A DNA stretch of 62,632 nt, filler included, from Basidiobolus ranarum (lineage: Eukaryota): assembly GCA_040143965.1 (NCBI GenBank). It is 25 parts of 25 records of this genome, joined end to end, with 100 filler letters (N's around TTAATTAATTAA, not from the genome) between each part and the next. Parts side by side here need not be neighbours in the genome. Positions count along the whole stretch, not along the records: positions 42,717 to 45,121 come from JASJQH010003374.1; 24 more parts are not named here. One strand, written 5' to 3'. Numbering within the stretch: the first letter of the stretch is position 1; every line of letters starts with the position of its first letter. The position numbers and the translations under genes were made by a program. This document shows, piece after piece, positions 317 through 45,121 of the stretch. Under the pieces are notes generated by a model, which made no database searches, had not been told where the DNA came from, and saw nothing but the letters and a program-made list of their open reading frames with translations.

Positions 317-2108
317 CTTGATGTTCTTTTCTTTTTGCTATATATCCCTTTGGTTGATCCATGTATATATCTAATCAATTTCTCCATTACAAAATGCTGT
401 CTTGACATCCATTTGTTCAATCAGCACTCCTTGGTGGGTAGCAATGGCTACAATTACTCCAATTGAGGTAAACTTAGCAATGGGAGAAAATGTTTCATCA
501 TAGTCAATGCCATGTTTGTGAGAATAGCCTTTCACTACAATCTGGCTTTGTACTGGTTGATAGATATATCTGAGTCAAGTTTCAGTTTCAGCACCCATCT
601 AATACCAATAGTTTTTCTTCCAGTAGGTAAATCCACAAGGATCCATATGTTATTCTTGATTAAGGAGTGAATTTCATCATTGGTGGCTTTTCTCCATTCT
701 GTTGCTTCATCAGATTTCAGAGCTTGTGTCAAATTTTCTGGTTCCAAAAATACTCTATGTGCACATATATTCCACTCTTTTTCTGAATTGAATCCGTTAA
801 TTTCATGCTCTGATTTGAGACACCCAAAATCCTCAGTAGAATGGTCTGTTATTTCACTTACAGAATGTTTCTGATTTCCAATTGGCAGGATTTCTGAGAC
901 CTGACTGCCTGAATTTTGTAATTGATTGAATACTTGTTATGATTGATTGCATACATCCAATAATTGATTGCATCTAATATCAGCCAAATTGAGGGTAGGA
1001 TATTTCTTAGGAATATGTGTGGTCAGATAATTATTGCCTTTTTTCTGAGCTCAATTTCTGGATTCATGATTGGCTGGAAAAATATCCTTTTTCTGATTCT
1101 CATTTTTTTTGTTGGCAGAGATAATATGCTGATTTCTAGAAGCTGGTTCCAAATTATTGGTATCCTCAGAGTAATTATCAGGTTTTCTGGTATAAATTGG
1201 TGCATTTCCAGTGCTGCCTAATGTTTCACTACTCATATAGCTGCTTGATTCCAGAATATGATGTAATAGATTGTTCTCCTTGGTTTCAGTCCTTGTAGTG
1301 AAGTTTGAGACAGGATTAGCGCTTGTTGGTTTTCTGCTAGGAATATGCATCACAGGGATTGGTAATGATTTGAGCTTTGTCATATATTCATTTGTGGCTG
1401 ATGTTTTAGACCTTGTCCCAGATGTGATATATTTTCTAAATTTGGATAATGTTGAAAGATAGTTTCAGATTCCAAATTTGGCCTAATTCCAGTATCTATT
1501 TCCATTGTACTATTTCCCAACTTGGTTTCAGTACTTGTTAGCTCAAGATTGGTTTCAGAACTTGTTAACTTAGAATCTGAGATACTGAGAAATTGATTTT
1601 CAGCCCAAATCAAATTTCCTTGATTAGAAGATTTGAGATTTTCTTCCGTGAATATAATATCTCTGGAGTTGATGATTTGATTTATTCCAGCAATTAGGAG
1701 ATAATAGCCTGTGTTCTGATGTCCTAATACAATAGTTTTAATTGCCTTTTTGTCCAATTTTCTACACTGAGGTTTAGGAATAAGAGCATATACTATTGAA
1801 CCTGAAATTCTGAGTTGATTCAGATTAGGCTTGTTTCCAGTGCAGATTTCAACAGGAGTTTTAGAGGCATGTTTGCTATCAGTTGAACTTCTATTTTGGA
1901 GACATGCAGCCATTAAAATAGCTCACCCCAATAGGTCTTAGGCAGATCTGAATCAATCAGCATTATATGTGCTTCCTCTACTTAAGTCCTATTCATCCTT
2001 TCAGCAACTCTGTTTTGTTCTGCACTATATGGAATAGTAAATTGCTGATGAATTCCCATTTCTTGACAAAAGCTAGTCATGGATTCATTGTTGTTTTCAG
2101 TTCCATGA
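317..2108 (-). mobile_element. Ty1/copia pol remnant (integrase core, SH3-like region, RT N-terminus)
   Basis: GIHQQFTIPYSAEQNRVAERMNRT (integrase); NLNQLRISGSIVYALIPK...KLDKKA; EPENLTQAL...W..A...EIHSLIKNNIWILVDLP...IGIRWVLKLK...YKARL (RT). Contains stops and frameshifts. Confidence 0.92.
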
Positions 2109-2421
2109 CCCTAACAAAAATAAAATCAATTTGCTCCAGATTGGAACCACCCTCATGATTTCTTAAAGGTCATTTAACAGTATTCAAACATGTTAAAATT
2201 TTGATCCCCAAATTTGGCATGCATGAAGCAATATCCGGTAATTTTTGCAAAAATATAAATTTTGAATGGCAAATTATTGGGTTTACTGCTGTATGAATTT
2301 GAATTAATATACATGCCTTTATATAGATATTTTTGGCTTTGTATTCCAGCCATAATGAGAATCAAAAAATACAAGAATCTTGTTGTGTTTAGTCTCTGCA
2401 TATATACTTACTTTACTAATA
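2109..2421 (+). mobile_element. Transposase-side end of CMC/EnSpm-like element (starts CCCTAACAAAAAT)
   Basis: Reverse complement matches 15107-15441, 40211-40333 and ~58220-58578, all of which end sharply in TGTTAGGG. Confidence 0.75.
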
Positions 2422-2521
2422 NNNNNNNNNNNNNNNNNNNNNNNNNNNNNNNNNNNNNNNNNNNNTTAATTAATTAANNNNNNNNNNNNNNNNNNNNNNN
2501 NNNNNNNNNNNNNNNNNNNNN
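2422..2521. other. Artificial contig linker (N44-TTAATTAATTAA-N44); first of 24 identical linkers
   Basis: Identical 100-nt spacers at 2422, 4942, 7460, 9977, 12492, 15007, 17520, 20033, 22545, 25056, 27567, 30077, 32587, 35096, 37604, 40111, 42617, 45122, 47626, 50129, 52632, 55134, 57634 and 60134. TTAATTAATTAA places stops in all six frames. Confidence 0.99.
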
Positions 2522-3200
2522 ACAAGTGTTTTCTACTTGTACCAGGTCTGTGGCAAGCAACAGTTGCCAATCAACTGTGGCAAAAGTGTAAGAAAACCAA
2601 TAAACACCTGGTTGCTAAGATTGGATTGAACTATCCACTCCTCAGTTGTAAAAGCTGCTTCCTTTACAGTATGTATTAAGAGTGCACTAATAATTGCCAA
2701 TAACAAACAGTCCATAACAAAACCATCATCTTCTTCTTCAACTTCTGATATACTACCATTAGTACTGGAATAACCAAGGTCAACATCTAGCAGCAAGTCC
2801 TCAAAGTTGTCTAGACTTACTAGTTTGACCAAAGTTGCATTTTGACCTACCTCATTCTGGTCATATAACTGTAGTAACTCCATGGTATCATTACTTTTGG
2901 CAGTGTGACCAAAACTTTGAGGCAAACTACAGTTAGTGGAGTCAATGGGCAAAACTAAAGTTGATTTAGTGCACTTATTACTGTTGTTATACACTAGGCT
3001 TTGTGAAGCTGGTGGCTTTGTACAGTGACCAAGCTTGTGATTATTTTTTTTATGAAACCTCTGGCTTTCATAGCACAAGAATTTGTGACAAAGATAGCAG
3101 GGCTTCTTTAAATGTTTGTATTGCCACATGAGAAGGATATTGTGGAAAAAAGAACACCTCCCACATAAGGGTGGTTTTTGAGGTATAGCCTATCAATATT
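2522..3200 (-). mobile_element. CMC/EnSpm-like transposase, N-terminal part (decayed)
   Basis: Homologous to 9220-9976, which runs into the Transposase_21-like core. Confidence 0.8.
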
Positions 3201-3369
3201 ATCATCAGATTCTGTGATGGTGTCACAGATGAGTCATCAGGGAATCTGCAAGATATTTCCGGTGATGGAGGGCAATTTTGGTTTATCATAAGCTTTTTCT
3301 AAGCAATTTCATAACACCAAGTTTACCATCTGAAAATTTCAAAGCTATTCAAAAAGCATTCAAAATCTA

Positions 3370-4663
3370 GGACAAAATTGGCTTCCAAGCCAAAGGCTGC
3401 TGGCACAAAAGAAAAAAAACCAGCAAGAACAGAGGACTTAATTGATTAGCAGTCTAGCAATCCACTATCCACTTTGGAAGGGATTATCATGCCGGAAACT
3501 AACTCAAGTAATGATGAAGCATTAATCAATTTACCAGATGTGTTCCTTTCCAGCAATAGTGCAAGTGAAGAGATTGTAATCCCCAATTATGTAGTAACTC
3601 AATAGTTGAGCAAGGTTCAACCAAAACACCATCAACACCATCAAATTTTAAAATGGCCACTTTGCCCACTGGTGAACAACCCTCCGTAGAAAATTTTGAT
3701 AAAATTACTAAACCAAGGGAGTTGCAGGCACTACACTGTAATGATTTGTATGCAACCATAAGTGAAAACTACAAAGTTGCTATACAGGCCATGACAAGCA
3801 ATAACACTCCAATATTGCAATTAATGCCACATTGGGAAGCTACTAGTCAACAGTTAGAAAGTCACTCAAAAATGATACAAGAACTTCAGAATGCTGTACT
3901 TGAGCCACAGCAACATGCTACTTCCTCCATCCATTCTCAGATGGGATTTTAATCAATCCCACACCAAACAGATGAACATCACTGTGGCAATCTAGCAGAG
4001 CAAGATATGTGTTGAATCATTAAGCCTACACAAAGGACAAAGTTGCTGGGGCATATGAAAGGAGAAATCTCATAGGAACACCAGCAAATCAAAAGACTCT
4101 GAATGTCAGAGCTGCCATCACTTGCTCTGATGATGAGTGGTTTAATATTTTGGAAACTACGCAGAATCTTGCCCAAAATCAACTGGATTTGAGCCATTAA
4201 TGGAAACACCCAAAACCAGGCCTTACTCTGAAGTTTCTTGACTTATTTGATTTGGCTTATCCTGGGTTTTTGCAAGCAAATGGCAATTGGGCTAGTATAG
4301 GCCTATTCATTAAAGATCTCACAAATGTACACAATTATTGACTTAGAAAAGAAAGAAATGCAGCTAAAGAAGTAATGAAGGAGCAGGAACTTAGTACACC
4401 CAAGGGATAAGCAAGGGGCCAGTGAGTTTAGGCTCTACTGTCTCACTTACCAAATTCTTCACACCATTACAAAGATCTGCTTTTCCAGAGTCAGATATAC
4501 TGGCAAAAATCCATAATTTCACCATGGAACCAGGTACACCAGTTGGAAAAGTGCTGAATTTGGTAGTTTATCCAACACCTGGCACTTCTCAGCAAGCAAA
4601 AACACCAGCAAACCAAACTCACCGCTCTCCAACCTCAACTGGTACTTTTCAAAGTGATGAAAT
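3370..4663 (+). mobile_element. Second, divergently oriented ORF (ORF2) of the CMC/EnSpm-like element, decayed
   Basis: Head-to-head with the transposase start in the same contig. 4615-4663 overlaps the start of contig 37704, which continues to the element end. Broken ORFs at 3653-3952 and 4422-4663. Confidence 0.55.
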
Positions 4664-7670: not shown

Positions 7671-9976
7671 GAGATACTTAATCTGTGTGCATGGCTTGGG
7701 CTTTGTTGCTGTTATTGCACTCAAACAATGCAAAAACCCATGAGAATTTTGAAAAGAGCCCTTTGTTGGAAGGTTAATATACTCTGGAGTCTTCTTAACC
7801 CATCGCATTATATCCAACACTAATTTTGCTGATACATTGTTAATTGGATTAGCATATGGTAATACTGATGGTTTCACACAGAACATCATTTCACTGAAGG
7901 TGTGCTTCATTGGTCACTCCTAGAATGTGTGACCAGGTCCTATAACTCTAAGCATTGTGAAAGATGCAGCAGGGAATGTGTTGAAAACCAGCATAGATTC
8001 AGTCTATCTTCTTTAAACCTGTAAAAAAGTTTTTATATCCAATTAAAAATCGTCTCACAGTTGCTCTATTGGCCTGAGATCTGCCAATGTGAGTTGATGT
8101 TGTAAGAATATATTAACAATATCAACAAACAACTCCCAATGTTGCCAATACTTAATGGGCTAAAATCTTTTCAAGACTTCACTTGAATATATACAAATTG
8201 AATACTTCCAGTCTTTGCATTTAAATAAACACCTAGATGAGTGGATATTGATGGGAGTCCTGGTAAAATATGATGATATCTTTGCTTTTTCAATCATTTT
8301 CCAAATCAACTCAAACTTTGATTGTATCTCAAATGGCTCATCCATATTGAATTTTCCACTATATAGTGGAGAAAGTAGTATTGGAATGTTTTTGACTAGT
8401 AAGTGCATAGTGCCTAATGGGAAGCTCTGGCTTGAGCTGATCCCCTTTGGCAATATAATTTTAGGCTTATGGCTAATACCAAGTTTGATGTTAGACCAAC
8501 TATTTGGTGAATTGATATCAGTTATCATGTTGAAATCTGGCTGTGCTCTTGATGGTAAAATCATGGAGCTTAGTGTTGTATTTGGATAGTAGTAATGTGT
8601 AGGCCTGATAGAGTAACCTCCTTTCATTTGACAAAATTTACAGCAAGATAGTGTATTGTGCCTGCAAGAACCTCTAAGTTTACTGATGGCAGGAGTGTCA
8701 CCAATACATACAATGATATTAGCTTTCATAGAATATTCACCCATCTGAACCCCATTGGATAACTGTTCTAACTCCACAATCAAAGGCTCCAAGTAGGTAT
8801 CTACAAGCACTTGTGATTTAGGTCCAGATATGATGGATAGTATCAAAATATTATGACTCTTGTACCATTCAGAAGGAGGAAGATTTAAGTTGATTAAAAT
8901 TATTGGCCATCAAGCCTTTCCAATGGTATATTTGTTTAGTAAGAAACCATCCAGAGCCAATGCAAATGCATGATCATATGTGTTCCCAAAGAAATCTTGA
9001 CTTCTCAAATTCTGGTAGTGATATCTGTCAAGTATATTGGTATTATGATTAGCTTTACAGTGAGTACTTTGGTATTGGATCAATGATTTACATTTAGGTG
9101 ATTTTATCAAAATTTTATGATGGGGAATCAACAGTGTGTAAGCCAAATATGAACTATATTTAACTGATTCAGTGAGTGCCAATTGGGTGCTAACAGTACA
9201 TGACTTCAGGTTTTTCAGATCATACGTTAAAGCCTAACAACCATTTTGGACATGAAGGTAGTTTAATTACTGAAGGATTAAAAGTCATACAATTGATAAG
9301 TGTTTTCCTATTGTACCAAGTCTGTGGCAAGCAATAGTTGCCAATCAACTGTGGTAAAAGTGTAAGAAAATCAATAAATATTTGGTTTCTAAGATTGGAT
9401 TGAACTCTCAACTCCTCAATAATCAAAGCTGCTTCCTTTACAGTAAGTGTTACCAGTGGACTAGTGTTTGCCAATAACACAGAGTCCCTAACAAAACCAT
9501 ATTCTTCTTCTTCAACTTCTGATATACTACCATTGGTACTGGAATAACCAAGGTCAACATGTAGCAGCAAGTCCTCAAAGTTGTCTGGACTTACTGGGTT
9601 GACCAAAGATGCACTTCTACCCACATCATTCTGGTCATATAATTGTGGTAACTTCATGGTATTTTGACTTTCGGCAGTGTTAGCAAAGCTTAGAGGCAAA
9701 GTACAATCAGTGGACTCAATGGGCAAAACCAAAATCAATTTAGTACACATATTACTGTTATAATACACCAGGCTTTGTACAGCTGGTGGCTTTGTAAAGT
9801 GACCATGCTTGTGATGATTTTTTTCATGAAGCCCCCAGCTTTAATAGCACAAGAATTTGTGACAATAATAACAGGGCTACTTAAAATATTTGTGAGGCGG
9901 CATAAGAAAGATATTGTTGAAAAAAATACACCACATATGTAAGGGTGGATTTGTAGGTATAGCCCATCAATATCAC
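7671..9976 (-). mobile_element. CMC/EnSpm (CACTA-like) transposase pseudogene
   Basis: NLPPSE.YK..NILILSIISGPK...DTYLEPLIVEL..L..GV...IGDTPAISKL.G..H....CKFC (Transposase_21-like); LPSCP; H.LLHL...GP....E.PM. Confidence 0.88.
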
Positions 9977-25155: not shown

Positions 25156-27566
25156 ATTTCTTCACCTCACCACCCTGTCATCCTTGGTATCTCAAGGCTG
25201 ATGCAGCACAATCCAGTAATAAACTGGAAGAAGAAGATTATCATGTTCAAGCAAGCTGCACCTCCTAGTCCTATTTGCCTACCTACAAAGCATCCAACTC
25301 ACCATCAGCCCAATCCTCAAAGATCTATGAAGCCAATATCCATTGACAGTGTTGCTGAAGAGCTGAAACCAACAGAAACTATGGTTCATATGCTCCTACC
25401 CAACTATTTAGCCTCTGATGATGTCTCTGACCAGAAGAAATTTGTTATACTCTCAGCTCACTGCCCTTATGATTGCCCTATAGATCTACAAGAAGGAAGA
25501 CAACCACCATTTGGGCCTATCTACGGGCTGGCCTAGCCACAACTCAACATTCTGAAAATGTGTATTGCAGAAAATTTGGAGAAAGGGTTTATTCAACATT
25601 CAAAGTCTCCAGTAGGCTCTCCAATCTTATATGTTAAGAAAAAGGATGGATCTATCCATCTCTGTGTTAATTATTGAGGCCTCAATAGAATTACAGTCAA
25701 AAATTGGTTCCCCTTACCATTAATAAATTCACTCTTGGATCAGCTTGCTTCAGCCAAGATATTTACAAAGATTGATTTAAGAGGTGCTTACAATCTTGTA
25801 AAAGTCAAAGCAAGAGATAAATGGAAAACTGCCTTTCAAACTTGCTATGGACACTTTGAATGCAATGTCATGCCATTTGGACTTACCAATGTCCCTGCAG
25901 TCTTTAAGCACATGATTAATGATATCTTCAGAGAGTATCTTGACCAGTTTGTAGTAATCTACCTGGAAGATATGTTGGTCTTCTCAAGCTCTCAAGAAGT
26001 ACATAATATTCATGTTTTGAAGTCCTAGAAAACTTGAAAACCTCTGGTCTTGATGCTAAACTTGAGACATGTAAGTTTGACCAAGCTCAAGTTGAATTCC
26101 TTGGAAATAACATTTGCCCATCAGGCTTCTCCATGGACCCTAAGAAGGTTGTGTCTGTTTGGTCTTGGGATATTGCTAAGAGTGTGAGGGATGTCCAATC
26201 CTTCCTGGTATTTGCAAACTTTAACCAATGGTTTGTTAAGATTTACTCCAAAATAGCTGCTGCATTAACAAACCTTACCAAGAAAGAAGTCCTATTTGAC
26301 TGGAACTCATCTTGCCAACACACATTTGTAAGTTTAAAGAATGCTTTTGTCTCAACACCAATCCTGGCACACCCCAAGCTAGACAAGCCATTTATTGTTG
26401 AAACAGATGCATCCAACTTTGCTCTAGGAGCAGTACTATCACAGTAAGGTGGTGACAACTTACTGCACCCTGTTGCCTTTTACTCAAGAGAGTTCTCTGC
26501 TTCAGAAATCAACTATGACATCTATGACAAGGAATTATTAGTAATTATTGGTGCAGTTGAACAATGGCAACAATACTTGGATGGTGAAAATCACACAATC
26601 ACAATCTATTGTGAACATAAGAATCTTCAGTATTTTAGTACAATCAAAGTTCTCAACTGCTGTCAAGCAAGATGGTCATTATTTCTTGCCATTTTTGATA
26701 TTATGATTACATGTCAACCAGGTAGCCTGCAGGGAAAACCTGATGCCTTATCATGTAGAGCTGAATATCAGGCTAAAGAAGGGGATGAGGCTGCAGGCCA
26801 ACAAAATACTTCCTTGCTGAAGCCCCACCAACTTCAAATTAGGACAACTGCTCTTTCTCTGCCCAGTAGAAGCATATTTCAAGAAGACATCTGCAAACTT
26901 TGGTATGAAGACCCATTGGTAATATCAATCAAGAAAACCAGGATACACCCAAAGGTCTCTCAAGCTTGGACTTGTACCCCCATTTCTCTATCATCCATGA
27001 TCTCTTGCTTTAAAGGAGCACCCTTACATTCCAGACCACACTTCCAGACTCAAAATCATGCTGGAAAGACATGACTCACCACTTGCAGGATACTGTGGTA
27101 TTGCTAAATCTTATATGTTGGCATCCAGGGATTATTGGTGGCCATAAATGTTTGCATTTGTCAAGACTTATGTTTCCACCTGTGATGCTTGTGCTTGAGT
27201 GAAGACACCAATATGTTAGCCCTATGGCCTCCTACTCCCACTTCCTATTCCTGATCAGCTGTGGGAATCCATGTCCCTCTATTTCATAACTGATCTACCC
27301 TTGTCTGTTAAATATGATTCAATTCTAGTAATTGTTGACCATCTAACAAATATGGCCCACTTTGTGCCCTGTAACAAGTCAATTGATGCAAAACAAACAG
27401 CAGAATTGGTAACTCAAAATATTTTCTGCCTTCACAAACTCCCTAAAACTATCATCTCTGACCAAGGACCTCAGTTTGCTGCCAAATTTTGTAAAGTCTT
27501 CTCCAAACCTTGAGGGTCTCTGGCAATCTCTCCACTGCTTTCCCTCGCCAATGTGATGGCCAAACA
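25156..27566 (+). mobile_element. Ty3/gypsy (Tf1/Tf2-like) pol pseudogene: RT, RNase H, integrase
   Basis: [38 protein letters not shown] (decayed YLDD); ETDASNFALGAVLSQ; NYDIYDKELL; SLYFITDLP; IISDQGPQF. RT-RH-IN order. Confidence 0.95.
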
Positions 27567-27666: not shown

Positions 27667-30076
27667 TTCCCACTCAATTAATTATTTTGTATTTCTCCTA
27701 AACCTAAGTTATATCTTGATAATTCAAATTTTGCTTTGGCTAAAGGTTTGGTTAAGATACAGGCGATCATATCTTCAGTAGGTCAATAGACAAGATCAAT
27801 TATATTATACTCTATTGCTTCTCTAACAAAATGATGCCTAATAACTATATGTTTTGTTCTAGTATGAAATGTAGGGTTTTTTGCTAATGAAATACAACTT
27901 TAATTATCTTCAAGTACAGTAGTAGCACATTTTTGCATGTATCCAAAGTCTGTAAGAACTTCCTTAATCACATAGCTTCTTGTGTAGTAGCAGAGGCAGC
28001 TATATACACTGATTCTGTAGTGGAAAGTACTATGGTTGGTTGCTTCTTACTATTCCAAGCTATGGCTCCATTACCATAGAGAAAAGTTTACCCAGTTGTT
28101 GTTCTTCTATCATCAAGGTTTCTTCCCCAGTCTGCATCACTGTAGCCTTCAAAATATTGTGCATCAGGAGTGGCAGAGTATTCCAGAACTAGATTTACAG
28201 TTCCTCTCAAATACCTGAATATTTATTTACTGCAGTTTTGTGCTCAGATCCTGGATTTTTGAGATATTGGCTGACAGTTCCCACTGCCCAAGTAATGTAT
28301 GGATGTGTTCCAACTATTGTATATGTAAAACTACCAACAATGGATTGATGAGGGAACTCCCGGCTTTGATTTGTGTCATGTTGGCCCAAATTAGATGCAA
28401 TTTTATTTATTTTCACATTGGGATCCATTGGTGTTGATACAGGCTTGCTATACTCCTTGTTGAAGCGTTTTAGGAAGTTTAGGATGTATACAGAGTGATT
28501 CAGCCGGATTTTCTTATTGGGTTCATCACTCTTGTTTTGGATTCCAAGAAAATAACTTAATTCACCCATGACAGTCATCTGAAATTGGTTTGATAAGCTG
28601 CATTTTGTCTGATTAAGTGCTTCTAGATCATTTGTGGCTATGATTAAGTCATCCACATATAGTGCCAAGATAAGGATTCTATTTCCAGTTGTTTTGACAT
28701 AAACACTGTGATCTGCTGTGCATTTGTGGAATACTAGTGTTTCCAAACAGGTATCTATCTTGTTGTACCATGCGCTGGGTGCTTGCTTGAGTCCGTATAG
28801 TGGTTTTTGCTGTTTACAGACCATATCAGGATGTTTTGAATCAACAAATCCATCTGGTTGCTCTATTTAGATCTCTTCTTCTAGATTTCCATTCAGAAAG
28901 GCTGTTTTTACCCCCATTTGATGTAAATCAAGGTTATGGATGGCTGATAGTGCCAGGAGTGATCTAATGGAGCTAATCTTAGCTACTGGAGCAAAGGTTT
29001 CATTAAAATCAACTCCTGGAGTCTGGTAATAGCCTTTTGTGACTAATCTTGTTGTGTAACATTCTTCAATTCTAACAGCTCAGTTTTGACTTTGTAGGCC
29101 CATTAGCAACCTATTGGCTTTCTCCCTGCTGGAAGTCAACATAAAACCCACATTTTATTGTCCTGAAGTGAAGAAAACTCATCTGACATAGCTTGTTCCC
29201 ATAATTTTGATTCTGGAAACTCTTGAGCTTGATGCAGAGTCCAGGGCTTATCACAGAATGCTGTATAAGAATATACATCATTATTCAAAGTATTCCACCA
29301 GTTTCCTGGCTTATTTCTCCTTCTGGTTGATCTTTAAGGTCTCTTATCATCCCCTGATATAATTGGGACTGGAATTTCAGTTGAATAGGGCTCCAAAACA
29401 GCTGGAATTCCATCACACTTCCTGAATAGGTTGATTGTGTTTTCTGGATTAAGAACTGTGATTTGGGATGAAAATTTGATTTTTCATCAAAAATCACATC
29501 TCTGCACTTGAGTAACTTCAGATTTTTGGTATCAAACAGTCTGTAGGCCTTAGATCCATTGCAGTAACCAAGATGTATACATTTCCTGCTTCTAGGTTCC
29601 AATTTAGAGTATTTTTGAGCTGGTATTAGGCAATATGCCATGCAGCCAAAGATCCTGAGATGAACCACATTTGGTTTTGACTCATATAGGCCTGCAAAAG
29701 TAGTAGATTTTTGTAGGAATCTTGTTGGTATCTGTTTTTGACAAAGACTGGAGTGGAGACAGATTCAGCTCAAAATTGGTAATCTAACTTATGATCATAT
29801 AACATTGATTTGCCAACTCCACTATGGTCCTATTAGCACATTCTGCAACTCTATTTTGCTGTGGAGCCTAAGGTACTGTAGTTTGTTGCTTAATTCCATG
29901 TTTACAGCAAAAACTAGCAAAGTCTCTAGAGCAGTATTCTCCAGCATTATCACTCCTTAGTACCCTGATCTTCTGGGTCCTGCATCATCCTTTGATGTAA
30001 TTGGGACTGAAATTTTGGTTGAATTGGGCTCAGATAGAGCTGGAATTTTGTCAGACACTTCCTGAATAGTGCTGAT
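27667..30076 (-). mobile_element. Copia family B pol pseudogene (integrase, RT, RNase H, PPT)
   Basis: HLRIFGCMAY...KCIHLGY; KPLYGLKQAP; ALYVDDLII; HTRTKHIVIRHHF. The PPT at the contig start matches 18212. Confidence 0.93.
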
Positions 30077-42616: not shown

Positions 42617-42716
42617 NNNNNNNNNNNNNNNNNNNNNNNNNNNNNNNNNNNNNNNNNNNNTTAATTAATTAANNNNNNNNNNNNNNNNNNNNNNNNNNNN
42701 NNNNNNNNNNNNNNNN

Positions 42717-45121
42717 CAGGAAGACATTGCCATCGGCTCTCCTATTGCTAATCGTAATCGTGAAGAGATAGAAGCACTAATCGGGTTCTTTGTCAACACT
42801 CAAGTGATTCGGGTTCAGGTGGATCGTGCGTTGACATTCAAAGAGCTGTTGGCACAGGTCAAAGAGGTTACTTTGGGCGCGTATAGTCACCAGGATATTC
42901 CATTCGAACAAATAGTAGCCGAATTACAACCAGAGCGTGACCTTAGTCGTAATCCTTTGGTTCAGGTGATGTTTGTCTTGCAAGACACTTCGTTTGATGA
43001 CTTCAAATTTGGAGATATAGAAGCCATGCAAATTAGTACGGCAGAAATCAACACTCGATTTGACCTTGAAGTTCATTTTTGGAAATGTGGTGAAGGGTTA
43101 AAAGCCAAGTTTGTCTATAGTACTGATTTGTTCAGTCCAGACACTATACATAGAATGCTCTCTGGCTTGCAAAAGATTCTTGAGGCAGTTGTTAAAAATC
43201 CGGATCAAAATATAGATGATATACAATTGCTAGAAGATTTGGAGCGAGAACAACTTTTAGTGGCACTGAATAATACAAATATCAGTTATCCTAATGACAA
43301 ATCAATAGTAAATATCTTTGAGGAGCAAGTCAAATACACGCCGGACGCAGTAGCTGTAGTACAGAATGACGAGTTCCTAAGCTATTATCAACTCCATGAG
43401 ATGTCTACTCAACTAGCCATCTATCTTATTGAACTCGGAGTTAAAAATGAGGCACCAGTTGGCATTTGCATGGAGCGATCACCTCAGATGGTAGTTACTC
43501 TCCTAGCTATTCTCAAGGCTGGTGGAGTTTATGTACCGTTGGATCCTCAATACCCAATGGATAGAATACAGTTTATGCTTACCGATACCAAATCCTCAGT
43601 GATAATATGCCAGAAATCAACTTTGAGCGTATTACCAGACGGAGATCACAAGATCGTATGCTTGGACGAAGAAATCAACAAAATAATGAGTGTATCTCAC
43701 GAGGCTGTCCCAGTACAGCCAGTTGCCACCAATCTTGCCTACATCATATATACTTCTGGTTCCACCGGAATACCCAAGGGAGTTCTTGTGGAACACCGTT
43801 CTGTAGTTCGTTTAGTGAAAAACAACGAGTACATGAGTATTGGAGGTGACGATAAGGTTGCCCACATAGCCAGTACCTCTTTCGATGCAGCGACCTTTGA
43901 AGTGTGGGGTGCAGTCCTCAATGGTGCAACATTAGTGTGCATTAACCATACTGAAGTACTCGATATGAAACTGTTTGCAAAGAATGTCGCAGCTCACTCA
44001 GTCTCTATTATGCTGTTAACTACTGCCCTCTTCAATCGTGTTGTAGAGGATGCTCCAGATGTATTCAATGGCGTGAAGCAAATTCTATTTGGAGGTGAGG
44101 CTGCGAATTATCGTGCTGTCCAAAGCTTCCTCAATCTTCCCAACCGTCCAAGACTATTGAATGCTTATGGGCCTGCGGAGAACACAGCACTTTCAACCTG
44201 GTACGAAGTCAATGAGATTACTAGTCATATCCCAATTGGCAAGCCGATATCGAATAGTCGGGCCTATATTCTAGACCATCACTTAAGTCCGGTGCCTATC
44301 GGATTCGTAGGTGAGCTCTGTGTGGCTGGTGATGGTTTAGCTAGAGGTTACCTGAATCGCCCTGAGCTAACTGCTGAGCGTTTCGTAATCAATCCAAACC
44401 CAGAGTGTAACGGAGAACGAATCTATCGTACTGGAGATCTAGCTCGCTACAAAATTGATGGAAATTTGGAGTTTGTTGGTCGTATGGATCAGCAAGTAAA
44501 AATACACGGATTCAGAATCGAGTTGGGTGAGATCGAAAATGTACTATTGCAACAAGATTCAATCAGGGAATGCGTTGTTGTTGCTTGTAATGATGCATCT
44601 GGGGAGAAACAACTTGTCAGTTATGTGGTGGTAAGTGGAGAATTGACGACTGGAATGGATACTGAGCAAGTCGATAAGTGGGGAGCAGTATTTGATCAAC
44701 ATGTTTACGAGGACCTTGAAGAGGATCTGGCCGAACCTTCATTCAACATTACAGGGTGGAAATGTACCCTTACCGGTGAAGATATTCCCTCAGATGAAAT
44801 GAGAGAGTGGCTCAAGGACACCATTGCTGGAATCAGACAGCTAGGAGGCCAAGATATTCTCGAAATTGGATGTGGTACTGGAATGCTACTATTCGAGATC
44901 GCTCCATATTGTGAGCGTTACGTTGGAACGGATGTTTCCAGTGCTGCTTTGGCCTATGTCAACAAATACTTGGATACCTACAAACTACGGGATACAGTGC
45001 AGTTAGAACAACGCAGTGGTGATCAGCTGGACTCTATGGAAGAGGGAAGTTTTGACACGATAATATGCAACTCTGTAGCTCAATACTTCCCGAATATTGA
45101 GTATCTCAAAGATGTGGTGGT
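42717..45121 (+). CDS. Nonribosomal peptide synthetase, internal fragment: condensation (C-terminal half), adenylation, embedded N-methyltransferase
   Basis: Open across the whole contig (~801 codons, no intron). IGSPIANR..IGFFVNT; AYSHQDIPFE; LAYIIYTSGSTGIPKGV; FDAATFE; NAYGPAE; GELCVAGDGLARGY; YRTGDL; GRMDQQVKIHGFRIELGEIE; ILEIGCGTG; NSVAQYFP. Confidence 0.98.

What the first reader, a model, noticed from the sequence alone, without database searches (positions are those of the whole stretch)
42717..45121. Intronless, bacterial-like NRPS module with embedded N-methyltransferase
Seen: 2.4 kb fully open, with C domain, A domain and a SAM-dependent MT (LEIGCGTG, NSVAQYFP) inserted after motif A8. 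By-eye alignment to GrsA gives a pocket of about D-A-F-L-L-G-A-A-L-(K), suggesting an aliphatic residue (tentative). Established: this interrupted-A architecture makes N-methylated peptides (cyclosporin/enniatin synthetases, cyanobacterial NRPSs), and Basidiobolus and Mortierella carry NRPSs of bacterial origin. Inference: part of a large multi-module synthetase broken by repeated modules, possibly making an undescribed N-methylated cyclic peptide.
Basis: partly seen in the sequence, partly recalled or inferred. Interest (0 to 1): 0.7.

Follow-up and report, generated by a model that had tools for sequence, protein, structure and literature searches.

The report
Basidiobolus N-methylating peptide synthetase fragment
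This is a 2.4-kb loose contig from the frog-gut fungus Basidiobolus ranarum that encodes part of a bacterial-type peptide-building enzyme with a built-in N-methylating unit, a kind of gene already reported for this fungal genus.

Summary
Bases 42717-45121 are open in one frame for 801 codons. They encode the C-terminal half of a condensation domain, an adenylation domain through motif A8, and the start of a class-I SAM methyltransferase inserted after A8.

The stretch is exactly one 2405-bp contig. The window is 25 unrelated contigs joined by N/TTAATTAATTAA linkers, so there are no real flanks.

The contig is already annotated as Basidiobolus ranarum K7432_017132. Three further copies in that assembly are 69-72% identical. 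Two of them show the layout ...T-C-A(MT)-T-C-A-T-TE. Every other relative found is at most 52% identical, and every one that carries an organism name is bacterial except one Linnemannia protein.

In C, A and MT trees the Basidiobolus copies form one clade. Only the A-domain sister is well supported: an unnamed metagenomic C-A-T-TE family.

[quoted passage not shown] This is therefore a new member of a known kind. The pocket differs from its paralogues at four positions, which is the only fresh point.

Read depth, RNA and flanks could not be tested, so a contaminant is unlikely but not excluded.

The parts
42617..42716 (.). Artificial linker (44 N, TTAATTAATTAA, 44 N) that joins the previous contig. 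It is not genomic sequence.
42717..45121 (+). The whole 2405-bp contig, one open frame of 801 codons. It is annotated at NCBI as K7432_017132 of Basidiobolus ranarum, with a model of 684 aa covering aa 85-762.
42717..43259 (+). C-terminal half of a condensation domain (aa 1-181). The catalytic HHxxxDG motif lies upstream of the contig start.
   Evidence: Pfam PF00668, profile 269-456 of 456. Paralogues carry HHIVSDG or HHIISDG.
43317..44354 (+). Adenylation domain core (aa 201-546) with motifs A3 YTSGSTGIPKG (aa 345), A4 FDAATFE (aa 389) and A5 NAYGPAE (aa 482).
43884..44192 (+). Span holding the nine visible specificity-pocket residues (aa 390, 391, 394, 433, 457, 459, 483, 491, 492), which read DAFLLGAAL.
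44478..44537 (+). Motif A8 (GRMDQQVKIHGFRIELGEIE, aa 588-607). It has His where 125 of 126 aligned relatives have Arg (aa 597).
44529..44648 (+). First strands of the small C-terminal adenylation subdomain (aa 605-644), before the insertion.
   Evidence: PF13193, profile 1-39 of 76
44649..45119 (+). N-terminal roughly 157 residues of the inserted class-I SAM methyltransferase. The SAM-binding motif ILEIGCGTG is at 44856-44882 and NSVAQYFP at 45069-45092. The domain is cut off by the contig end.
45122..45221 (.). Artificial linker to the next, unrelated contig.

Best explanation
The contig is a fragment of a nuclear gene of Basidiobolus ranarum. The gene belongs to a small family of bacterial-type non-ribosomal peptide synthetases that this fungal lineage most likely acquired from bacteria and then duplicated.

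**Shown**
- The fragment covers one elongation module from mid-C domain to early MT domain.
- The frame is intact, and the near-invariant residues of the family are kept.

**Inferred mechanism**
1. The A domain activates a hydrophobic amino acid as its AMP ester and loads it on the downstream carrier domain.
2. The methyltransferase sits in the a8-a9 loop and uses SAM to methylate the alpha-amino group of the tethered residue.
3. The C domain then joins the upstream peptide to this N-methyl residue.
4. By analogy with the two longer paralogues, a further C-A-T module and a thioesterase would follow and release the peptide, probably as a ring.

The pocket DAFLLGAAL differs at four of nine positions from the DAFFLGVTF of the three paralogous MT modules. 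This copy therefore probably loads a different hydrophobic residue.
For: **Identity and relatives**
- Domain calls and open frame.
- The contig's protein is listed by NCBI as B. ranarum K7432_017132, on a 2405-bp contig.
- Three more copies in the same assembly:
  - P0019: 72% identity, 577 of 801 residues.
  - P0002: 71%, 571 of 800.
  - P0364, named K7432_017285: 69% over 573 aa.
- The next best relative over the full length is 47.7% identical (P0457, a Pyrinomonadaceae MAG). Over C-A only the best is 52% (P0159).

**Layout of the longer paralogues**
- P0002 and P0019 read T-C-A(MT)-T-C-A-T-TE.
- After the MT, P0002 carries NELTQYRY, an A9 motif LPKFMVP and an A10 motif NGKINR.
- Their C domains carry HHIVSDG or HHIISDG.

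**Trees**
- The Basidiobolus rows form one clade for each domain: C, 4 rows, support 97; A, 5 rows, support 100; MT, 4 rows, support 100.
- IQ-TREE on 45 rows gives 100 for the A-domain clade.

**No sign of decay**
- The contig departs from only 3 of 114 columns that are at least 95% conserved. The median over 127 rows is 2 and the maximum 9.

**Composition fits an AT-rich host**
- GC at codon positions 1/2/3 is 0.56/0.34/0.39, in a window of about 0.35 GC.
- The FYMINK/GARP amino-acid ratio is 1.25 for the contig and 1.24-1.41 for the paralogues. It is 0.21-1.16 in 20 other relatives checked.

**Insertion site**
- It is the same as in PDB 5WMM. That entry is TioS(A8MIA9)4, the representative of the backbone N-methylating family 1 of interrupted A domains (PMC8341866; passages and section 10 read).

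**Literature on Basidiobolus**
- Tabima 2020 (PMC7466969; passages read) reports NRPS enrichment, bacterial best hits and host-like read depth.
- It reports a median of 0 introns in transfer candidates.
- It also describes a tetramodular gene with two N-MT domains and a TE.
Against: - Residence in the fungal genome therefore rests on the NCBI label, the four-copy clade and composition.
- **Mild compositional outlier.** Of the 25 contigs this one is the most unlike the rest:

| Measure | This contig | Nearest other contig |
|---|---|---|
| GC | 0.431 | 0.417 |
| Dinucleotide distance | 111 | 105 |
| Trinucleotide correlation | 0.81 | 0.88 |

  It is also the only contig that is coding from end to end, so this test is inconclusive.
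- **No second Basidiobolus species.** No protein of B. meristosporus or B. heterosporus appeared in any search. However, the searches covered only 440-4005 and 4760-5000 residues, and the representative library collapses relatives at 50% identity. The published tetramodular gene may simply have been out of reach.
- **One unusual residue.** R597H in motif A8 is unusual, and its effect is unknown.
- **Untested chemistry.** N-methylation rather than another methylation, the substrate, and cyclisation are all inferred.
Confidence: 0.8

Rival explanations
1. The contig and its three relatives come from a bacterium that was sequenced together with the fungus (a culture contaminant or an endobacterium) and were labelled as fungal by mistake.
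For: - All relatives outside Basidiobolus that carry an organism name are bacterial, except one Linnemannia protein.
- In the ESM Atlas look-up, every displayed row through rank 15 is a 100% bacterial cluster.
- The frame has no intron over 2.4 kb.
- The contig is the compositional outlier among the 25 contigs of the window.
- All four copies sit on short contigs of 2.3-17 kb.
Against: - No bacterial protein exceeds 52% identity. The searches covered about 5.8 billion proteins and 1.84 billion representatives. The source would have to be an unsampled bacterium.
- GC3 of 0.39 and an AT-type amino-acid make-up match the AT-rich host. They do not match the closest full-length relatives (Acidobacteriota loci, GC3 0.56-0.70).
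- Tabima 2020 found host-like depth and fungal neighbours for such genes in three other Basidiobolus assemblies (passages).
Confidence: 0.1
2. The contig is not a separate gene. It is a different module position of one of the already seen B. ranarum synthetases, for example the first of two N-MT modules as in the published tetramodular B. meristosporus gene. The assembly would have separated it from the rest of that gene.
For: - P0002 starts inside the end of an upstream A domain, so its gene model is cut at the 5' end.
- In the A-domain tree the contig branches apart from the clade of the other three MT modules (support 98), at the same depth as the non-MT module 2 of P0002.
- Tabima 2020 describes two N-MT domains in one four-module gene.
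- The contig's first 90 residues and aa 661-750 lie among the stretches most conserved among the paralogues, at 73-93% identity against 46-80% between them.
Against: - The module directly upstream of P0002's MT module has an uninterrupted AMP-binding_C (profile 9-76 of 76 at aa 3-81). The contig therefore cannot be the module immediately before it.
- No DNA of the other contigs could be read, so no overlap or linkage was tested.
Confidence: 0.3
3. The copy is a decaying duplicate (pseudogene fragment) with no function.
For: - It is the most divergent of the four copies, at 69-72% identity.
- It carries R597H in motif A8.
- It has a pocket not seen in the other 1579 A domains examined.
Against: - There are 801 codons without a stop or frameshift.
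- Only 3 of 114 near-invariant columns are changed, close to the median of 2 for all 127 rows.
- All core motifs that fall on the contig are present.
Confidence: 0.07

Closest known systems
Bacterial-derived NRPS genes of Basidiobolus, in particular B. meristosporus gene model 387529 (ORX93211.1), tetramodular with two N-MT domains and a TE (Tabima et al. 2020, PMC7466969)
   Same: - Same genus.
- NRPS with an embedded N-methyltransferase and, in the paralogues, a terminal TE.
- Bacterial best hits.
- Few or no introns.
- Proposed product: a cyclic peptide with methylated residues (passages).
   Different: - The sequence of 387529 could not be fetched, so orthology is untested.
- Tabima placed its A domains as sister to the Dikarya cyclosporin-type clade. 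Here the A domain has a well-supported sister among unnamed metagenomic C-A-T-TE proteins.
- The pocket of this contig, DAFLLGAAL, differs from its B. ranarum paralogues.
Family 1 interrupted adenylation domains (A8MbA9), represented by TioS(A8MIA9)4 of thiocoraline biosynthesis, PDB 5WMM (PMC8341866)
   Same: - The methyltransferase sits between a8 and a9.
- It has a class-I SAM fold motif.
- Residues 566-800 align colinearly with 5WMM 411-646 (E 1.5e-54).
- The structure was solved with L-Val-AMP bound (legend of Fig. 1), a hydrophobic residue as predicted here.
   Different: - TioS is actinobacterial and needs an MbtH-like partner. No such partner can be looked for here.
- Only the first 157 residues or so of the M domain are on the contig.
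Cyanobacterial cyanopeptolin or micropeptin-type synthetases with an N-MT module (source names McnC of Microcystis, P0077; OciB of Planktothrix, P0253)
   Same: - The C-A(MT) module is colinear over 100% of the query.
- Some bacterial proteins match the whole T-C-A(MT)-T-C-A-T-TE layout of paralogue P0002 at 38-42% identity, for example P0006 of Nostoc.
   Different: - Only 40-41% identical.
- They are not the nearest branch in any of the three domain trees.
Bacterial-like NRPSs of Mortierella alpina (malpicyclin and malpibaldin synthetases; bioRxiv 10.1101/2020.08.21.262279, search listing and start of abstract only)
   Same: Early-diverging fungus with bacterial-type NRPSs that make cyclic pentapeptides.
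   Different: - Different fungal phylum.
- The one Mortierellaceae hit here (Linnemannia gamsii, P0194) is 41% identical, lacks the MT and has an unrelated pocket, DVWNIAMVH.
Dikarya N-methylating synthetases (cyclosporin, enniatin, beauvericin; recalled, and named in Tabima 2020)
   Same: Same working principle: an A domain carrying an N-MT makes N-methyl peptide bonds.
   Different: - No Dikarya protein is among the named hits of any search.
- Ascomycota clusters first appear at rank 17 in the Atlas look-up.
- None was placed in my trees.

Membership tests
NRPS elongation module (C-A-T) | Condensation domain with catalytic HHxxxDG | tested here: inconclusive
   Only profile positions 269-456 of 456 are on the contig, and the His motif lies upstream of the contig start. 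Paralogues P0002 and P0019 carry HHIVSDG or HHIISDG.
NRPS elongation module (C-A-T) | Adenylation domain with core motifs A3-A8 | tested here: met
   PF00501 covers profile 1-384 of 384 (E 1.5e-86). TIGR01733 scores 443 bits against a cut-off of 317. Motifs A3, A4, A5, A7 and A8 were found.
NRPS elongation module (C-A-T) | Carrier (T) domain with a phosphopantetheine serine after the A domain | not testable with these tools
   It lies beyond the contig end. It is present after the MT in the paralogues (FFDLGGHSL at aa 1601 of P0002).
Interrupted A domain family 1 (A8MbA9, type I M domain; PMC8341866) | M domain inserted between motifs a8 and a9 | tested here: met
   A8 is at aa 588-607 and the MT follows from about aa 645. 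The stretch is colinear with 5WMM 411-646. The a9 side is off the contig. In P0002 the A9 and A10 motifs follow the MT.
Interrupted A domain family 1 (A8MbA9, type I M domain; PMC8341866) | Class-I SAM-binding GxGxG motif | tested here: met
   ILEIGCGTG at aa 714. Pfam Methyltransf_12/25/11 hits.
Interrupted A domain family 1 (A8MbA9, type I M domain; PMC8341866) | M domain of about 390 +/- 21 residues with six N-MT motifs | tested here: inconclusive
   The contig holds only about 157 residues of the M domain. The paper's motif table was not in the held text. In paralogue P0002, A8 (aa 1048) and A9 (about aa 1530) are about 480 residues apart, which leaves an insert of roughly 410-430 residues. 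The link between the motif NELTQYRY and N-MT domains is recalled, not from a call.
Interrupted A domain family 1 (A8MbA9, type I M domain; PMC8341866) | Backbone N-methylation of the tethered amino acid | not testable with these tools
   Inferred from the similarity to 5WMM and from a pocket that predicts a residue with no side-chain O or S to methylate.
Horizontally acquired NRPS of Basidiobolus (Tabima 2020) | Encoded in a Basidiobolus genome | tested here: inconclusive
   NCBI names the protein and three paralogues as B. ranarum. Other contigs of the window carry eukaryotic retroelement and transposase pieces: 4 of 12 ORFs tested. Those contigs are not linked to this one.
Horizontally acquired NRPS of Basidiobolus (Tabima 2020) | Nearest relatives outside the genus are bacterial | tested here: met
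   The one exception is Linnemannia gamsii at 41%.
Horizontally acquired NRPS of Basidiobolus (Tabima 2020) | Read depth like the host scaffold and fungal genes on the same scaffold | not testable with these tools
Dikarya cyclosporin/enniatin-type clade (CYCLO of Bushley and Turgeon, as used by Tabima 2020) | A domains group with Dikarya CYCLO-clade A domains | tested here: inconclusive
   No Dikarya sequence reached any hit list, and the A domain has a well-supported non-Dikarya sister. No CYCLO-clade sequence could be put in the tree.

The most novel reading that the evidence does not exclude
This contig may be the only sampled piece of a further Basidiobolus N-methyl-peptide synthetase module that changed its substrate after duplication. 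Its pocket DAFLLGAAL differs from the DAFFLGVTF of its three paralogues at four positions (F to L, V to A, T to A, F to L). Among the 1581 A domains examined it occurs only in the query itself and in its own NCBI annotation. If so, B. ranarum makes an N-methylated, probably cyclic, peptide with a residue not found in the peptides made by the paralogous enzymes and not among the cyclic pentapeptides so far isolated from the genus.
Probability: 0.3. Interest if true: 0.4.

Novelty: new member of a known kind. Interest (0 to 1): 0.25.

Why it matters
Basidiobolus is the best-documented non-Dikarya fungus with bacterial-type peptide synthetases. According to a 2024 paper (PMC10964425, passage read), only two sets of cyclic pentapeptides have been isolated from the genus, and Tabima et al. 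2020 note that their link to an NRPS gene still awaits genetic confirmation.

This fragment adds one more diverged copy of the N-methylating module in a second species. It shows that the family has expanded to at least four loci in B. ranarum, with one copy carrying a changed pocket. That is useful for genome mining but does not change the picture.

The practical lesson for the scan is that this window is a chain of unrelated short contigs. No finding in it can use neighbouring sequence as context.

Tried and rejected
- **Own genome and reads.** A search of the window's own genome failed because no genome is held. I tried no other route to read data.
- **The published B. meristosporus gene 387529 / ORX93211.1.**
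  - The paper's supplements are not held.
  - The accession occurs in no other held paper.
- **Direct alignment to GrsA (PDB 1AMU) for the pocket.** 1AMU ranked 19th and 14th, and only the best five alignments are printed. Instead I took the pocket columns from a 127-row alignment. The same columns give widely repeated codes in the bacterial rows: DAWFLGNVV, DFWNIGMVH, DLFNNALTY, DILQLGLIW, DAWTIAAVC. I recall these as the standard Leu, Thr, Ala, Gly and Phe codes. The substrate labels are recalled, not from a call.
- **A wrong guess.** I expected representative hits of about 3100-3200 residues to be Dikarya enniatin or beauvericin synthetases. The named ones are Streptomyces, Sphaerisporangium and a Pseudonocardiaceae MAG.
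- **Composition as a contaminant test.** It is inconclusive, because this is the only all-coding contig of the 25.
- **Other NRPS pieces in the window.** tblastn with P0002 and P0019 found none outside this contig.
- **Dual epimerisation/condensation motif in the paralogues' C domains.** My pattern for it, written from recall, found no match.
- **Earlier scan notes.** The look-up by sequence and by words gave nothing on this family. The look-up by place gave one note on other NRPS genes of the same genome.
- **Not used.** No structure prediction or complex prediction was run, because sequence similarity to solved structures was already decisive.
Full report
**1. What the window is**

The 62,632-base window is not a stretch of chromosome. 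A script that lists runs of N shows 25 blocks of 2421 down to 2399 bases, in strictly falling order. They are joined by identical 100-base linkers of 44 N, TTAATTAATTAA and 44 N, which can be read directly.

The finding, 42717-45121, is exactly one of these blocks, a 2405-base contig. Its neighbours are unrelated contigs. Of 12 longer ORFs I tested from them, 4 carry pieces of copia or gypsy reverse transcriptase, a retroviral SH3-like domain or a Tnp2 transposase, and 8 match nothing. tblastn with the two long paralogues finds NRPS similarity nowhere else in the window.

**2. The observation**

Frame +1 is open for all 801 codons.

Pfam gives:
- Condensation, profile 269-456 of 456, at aa 1-181.
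- AMP-binding, the whole profile, at aa 201-546 (E 1.5e-86).
- The first 39 profile positions of AMP-binding_C at aa 605-644.
- Several class-I methyltransferase families at aa 714-795.

NCBIfam's adenylation-domain model passes its cut-off, 443 against 317 bits. All equivalog models for named synthetases stay far below theirs.

Motifs A3, A4, A5, A7 and A8 are present. Residues 566-800 align colinearly with residues 411-646 of PDB 5WMM (E 1.5e-54). According to PMC8341866 (passages and section 10), that entry is TioS(A8MIA9)4. It is the structural representative of interrupted A domains that carry a backbone N-methylating M domain between a8 and a9.

**3. The pocket**

I could not print an alignment to GrsA, because 1AMU ranked 19th and 14th and only five alignments are shown. 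Instead I aligned the query with 126 module segments:
- the 80 best-scoring segments covering C-A-MT,
- the 45 best covering C-A only,
- the Linnemannia hit.

These were chosen by BLAST score from 1338 segments. I read nine columns anchored on motifs A4 and A5 and their surroundings.

In the bacterial rows the same columns give codes that recur many times: DAFFLGVTF, DAFWLGGTF, DAWFLGNVV, DFWNIGMVH, DLFNNALTY, DILQLGLIW, DAWTIAAVC. I recall several of these as standard specificity codes, which supports the choice of columns. The substrate labels are recalled and come from no call.

| Module | Pocket |
|---|---|
| This contig | DAFLLGAAL |
| Three paralogous MT modules of B. ranarum | DAFFLGVTF |
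| Module 2 of P0002 | DAFFIGGTF |

An HMM-based extraction covered all 1581 A domains of the 549 proteins held, plus the query itself. It finds DAFLLGAAL only in the query and its own annotation. The nearest codes are DAFLLGATL (1 domain) and DAFLLGATI (2 domains), in unnamed proteins.

The pocket is hydrophobic throughout, so a hydrophobic residue is likely. Which one cannot be said here.

**4. Whose gene it is**

The 'near'-length search returns a protein 100% identical over 85% of the query. NCBI names it hypothetical protein K7432_017132 of Basidiobolus ranarum, on a contig of 2405 bases. The model starts at an internal Met (aa 85). It follows the open frame to aa 761 and ends in a few residues that are not in that frame. 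I take this ending to be an annotation artefact at the contig end.

Three more B. ranarum proteins are close:

| Protein | Name and size | Identity to the query |
|---|---|---|
| P0019 | K7432_010368, 2719 aa, contig 10.4 kb | 72% |
| P0002 | K7432_006735, 2980 aa, contig 17.3 kb | 71% |
| P0364 | K7432_017285, 675 aa, contig 2.3 kb | 69% over 573 aa |

Among themselves these three are 75-83% identical, so the contig is the most divergent copy.

Everything else is far away:
- The best full-length match is 47.7% (P0457, a Pyrinomonadaceae MAG).
- The best C-A match is 52% (P0159, unnamed).
- The scan of prokaryote genomes confirmed 4 loci out of 88 pattern matches, at 38-40% identity: two Acidobacteriota MAGs and two Bacillus sp..

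Named relatives in all lists are cyanobacteria, myxobacteria, Acidobacteriota, Actinomycetota, Bacillota, Chloroflexota, Gemmatimonadota and proteobacteria. The single exception is Linnemannia gamsii at 41%. In the ESM Atlas look-up every displayed row through rank 15 is a 100% bacterial cluster, and Ascomycota clusters first appear at rank 17.

That is not independent evidence.

**5. What the whole enzyme probably looks like**

Pfam on the two long paralogues gives this order:
- end of an A domain,
- T, C, A,
- methyltransferase,
- T, C, A, AMP-binding_C, T,
- thioesterase.

After its MT, P0002 carries NELTQYRY, then LPKFMVP (A9) and NGKINR (A10), then a carrier motif. Its C domains have HHIVSDG and HHIISDG.

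Bacterial proteins such as P0006 (Nostoc), P0031 and P0074 match P0002 colinearly over about 2700-2850 residues at 41-42% identity. The two-module end with an N-MT in the penultimate module is therefore itself a bacterial layout.

The contig matches the MT module of this layout. Whether it belongs to a fourth locus or is another module of one of these genes is open. The module just upstream of P0002's MT module is not MT-interrupted, which excludes one arrangement.

**6. Trees**

From the 127-row alignment I cut three parts and built FastTree trees:

| Part | Residues | Rows | Basidiobolus clade | Support | Sister group |
|---|---|---|---|---|---|
| C | aa 1-181 | 125 | 4 rows | 97 | Weakly supported (72) |
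| A | aa 195-640 | 127 | 5 rows, including the non-MT module 2 of P0002 | 100 | Seven unnamed C-A-T-TE proteins of 1193-1373 residues, support 100 |
| MT | aa 645-801 | 83 | 4 rows | 100 | Weakly supported (8) |

Rows with under 60% of a part filled were dropped.

The A-domain sister group is P0157, P0159, P0163, P0167, P0170, P0171 and P0181. An IQ-TREE run on 45 rows (LG+G4, short search) keeps both results, with the Basidiobolus clade at 100 and the sister relation at 99. Those 45 rows are the 13 rows of interest, the 22 best C-A-MT rows and the 10 best C-A rows.

The same run places the contig outside the clade of the other three MT modules, which has support 98.

The look-up of the seven sister proteins gave only generic function names and no organism. 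No Dikarya N-methylating synthetase could be obtained, so the relation to the cyclosporin-type clade is untested here. Tabima et al. reported that relation for B. meristosporus 387529.

**7. Resident gene or contaminant**

What can be said:

- *No known source.* No bacterial protein above 52% identity exists in collections of 5.8 billion clusters and 1.84 billion representatives.
- *Family structure.* Four copies form one clade in one assembly.
- *Codon composition.* GC at codon positions is 0.56/0.34/0.39. The window is about 0.35 GC.
- *Amino-acid composition.* The FYMINK/GARP ratio is 1.25 for the contig and 1.24-1.41 for the paralogues. It is 0.21-1.16 in 20 other relatives checked, and 0.81-1.0 in the three named cyanobacterial ones.
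- *No decay.* The sequence departs from 3 of 114 near-invariant columns, against a median of 2 for all rows.
- *Against residence.* The contig is the most unlike the other 24 contigs:

| Measure | This contig | Nearest other contig |
|---|---|---|
| GC | 0.431 | 0.417 |
| Dinucleotide distance | 111 | 105 |
| Trinucleotide correlation | 0.81 | 0.88 |

. It is also the only fully coding contig, so this does not decide the matter.

For three other Basidiobolus assemblies, Tabima et al. report (passages):
- host-like depth for such genes,
- fungal genes on the same scaffolds,
- no difference in codon usage,
- a median of 0 introns in transfer candidates against 2 in fungal genes.

I put the contaminant reading at about 0.1.

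**8. What is already known**

Tabima et al. 2020 (PMC7466969; passages read) describe:
- The NRPS enrichment of Basidiobolus and its bacterial origin.
- Gene model 387529, with four modules, two N-methylation domains and a TE. It was the most highly expressed secondary-metabolite gene under laboratory conditions.
- A proposed, but genetically unconfirmed, link of 387529 to the cyclopentapeptides basidiosins.

Later papers list basidiosins A-L and meristosporins A-C of B. meristosporus as the only characterised Basidiobolus metabolites. They are cyclic pentapeptides with D and L residues (PMC10964425, passage; PMC10478498 and PMC11376311, passages). I could not read the isolation papers themselves, so I do not know whether those peptides are N-methylated.

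My searches for 'Basidiobolus' with 'N-methyl' and 'peptide', for 'basidiosin' and for 'Basidiobolus ranarum' with 'genome assembly' found no paper on this B. ranarum gene family or on the product of an N-MT module.

**9. Verdict**

The finding is real and correctly read, but it is a new member of a known kind. The one point worth a note for genome miners is the changed pocket in this copy. The one point worth a note for the scan is that the window is a chain of unlinked contigs.

Noticed in passing
window 1-62632: The window is 25 unrelated contigs of 2421 to 2399 bp in falling order of length. They are joined by 100-bp linkers (44 N, TTAATTAATTAA, 44 N). No feature in this window can use neighbouring sequence as genomic context.
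   Followed up: yes
window 28207-28866 (-), 26448-27074 (+), 8160-8909 (-), 1380-1922 (-): ORFs on other contigs carry pieces of copia-type reverse transcriptase (RVT_2), gypsy-type RT RNase H, a Tnp2-family transposase and a retroviral SH3-like domain. The short contigs of this assembly look repeat-rich.
   Followed up: partly
window 42969-45002 (NCBI model K7432_017132, P0122): The public gene model starts at an internal Met (aa 85 of the open frame). After aa 761 it ends in six residues that are off the open frame, although the frame continues and matches the paralogues. This is probably an annotation artefact at a contig end.
   Followed up: partly
P0019 (K7432_010368), residues about 2120-2130: In this paralogue the second C domain runs directly into the middle of the second A domain, and motifs A3 and A4 of module 2 are missing. 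This suggests a wrongly placed intron or a collapsed assembly in that gene model.
   Followed up: no
proteins P0157, P0159, P0163, P0167, P0170, P0171, P0181: This is a recurrent family of unnamed single-module C-A-T-TE proteins from metagenomes. They are 1193-1373 residues long, and one 90% cluster has 39 members. They are the well-supported sister of the Basidiobolus A domains (support 99-100) and share 50-52% identity over C-A. Their organism is unknown.
   Followed up: partly
window 44505-44507 (aa 597): Motif A8 reads KIHG where 125 of 126 aligned relatives have KIRG. The effect of this change is unknown.
   Followed up: no
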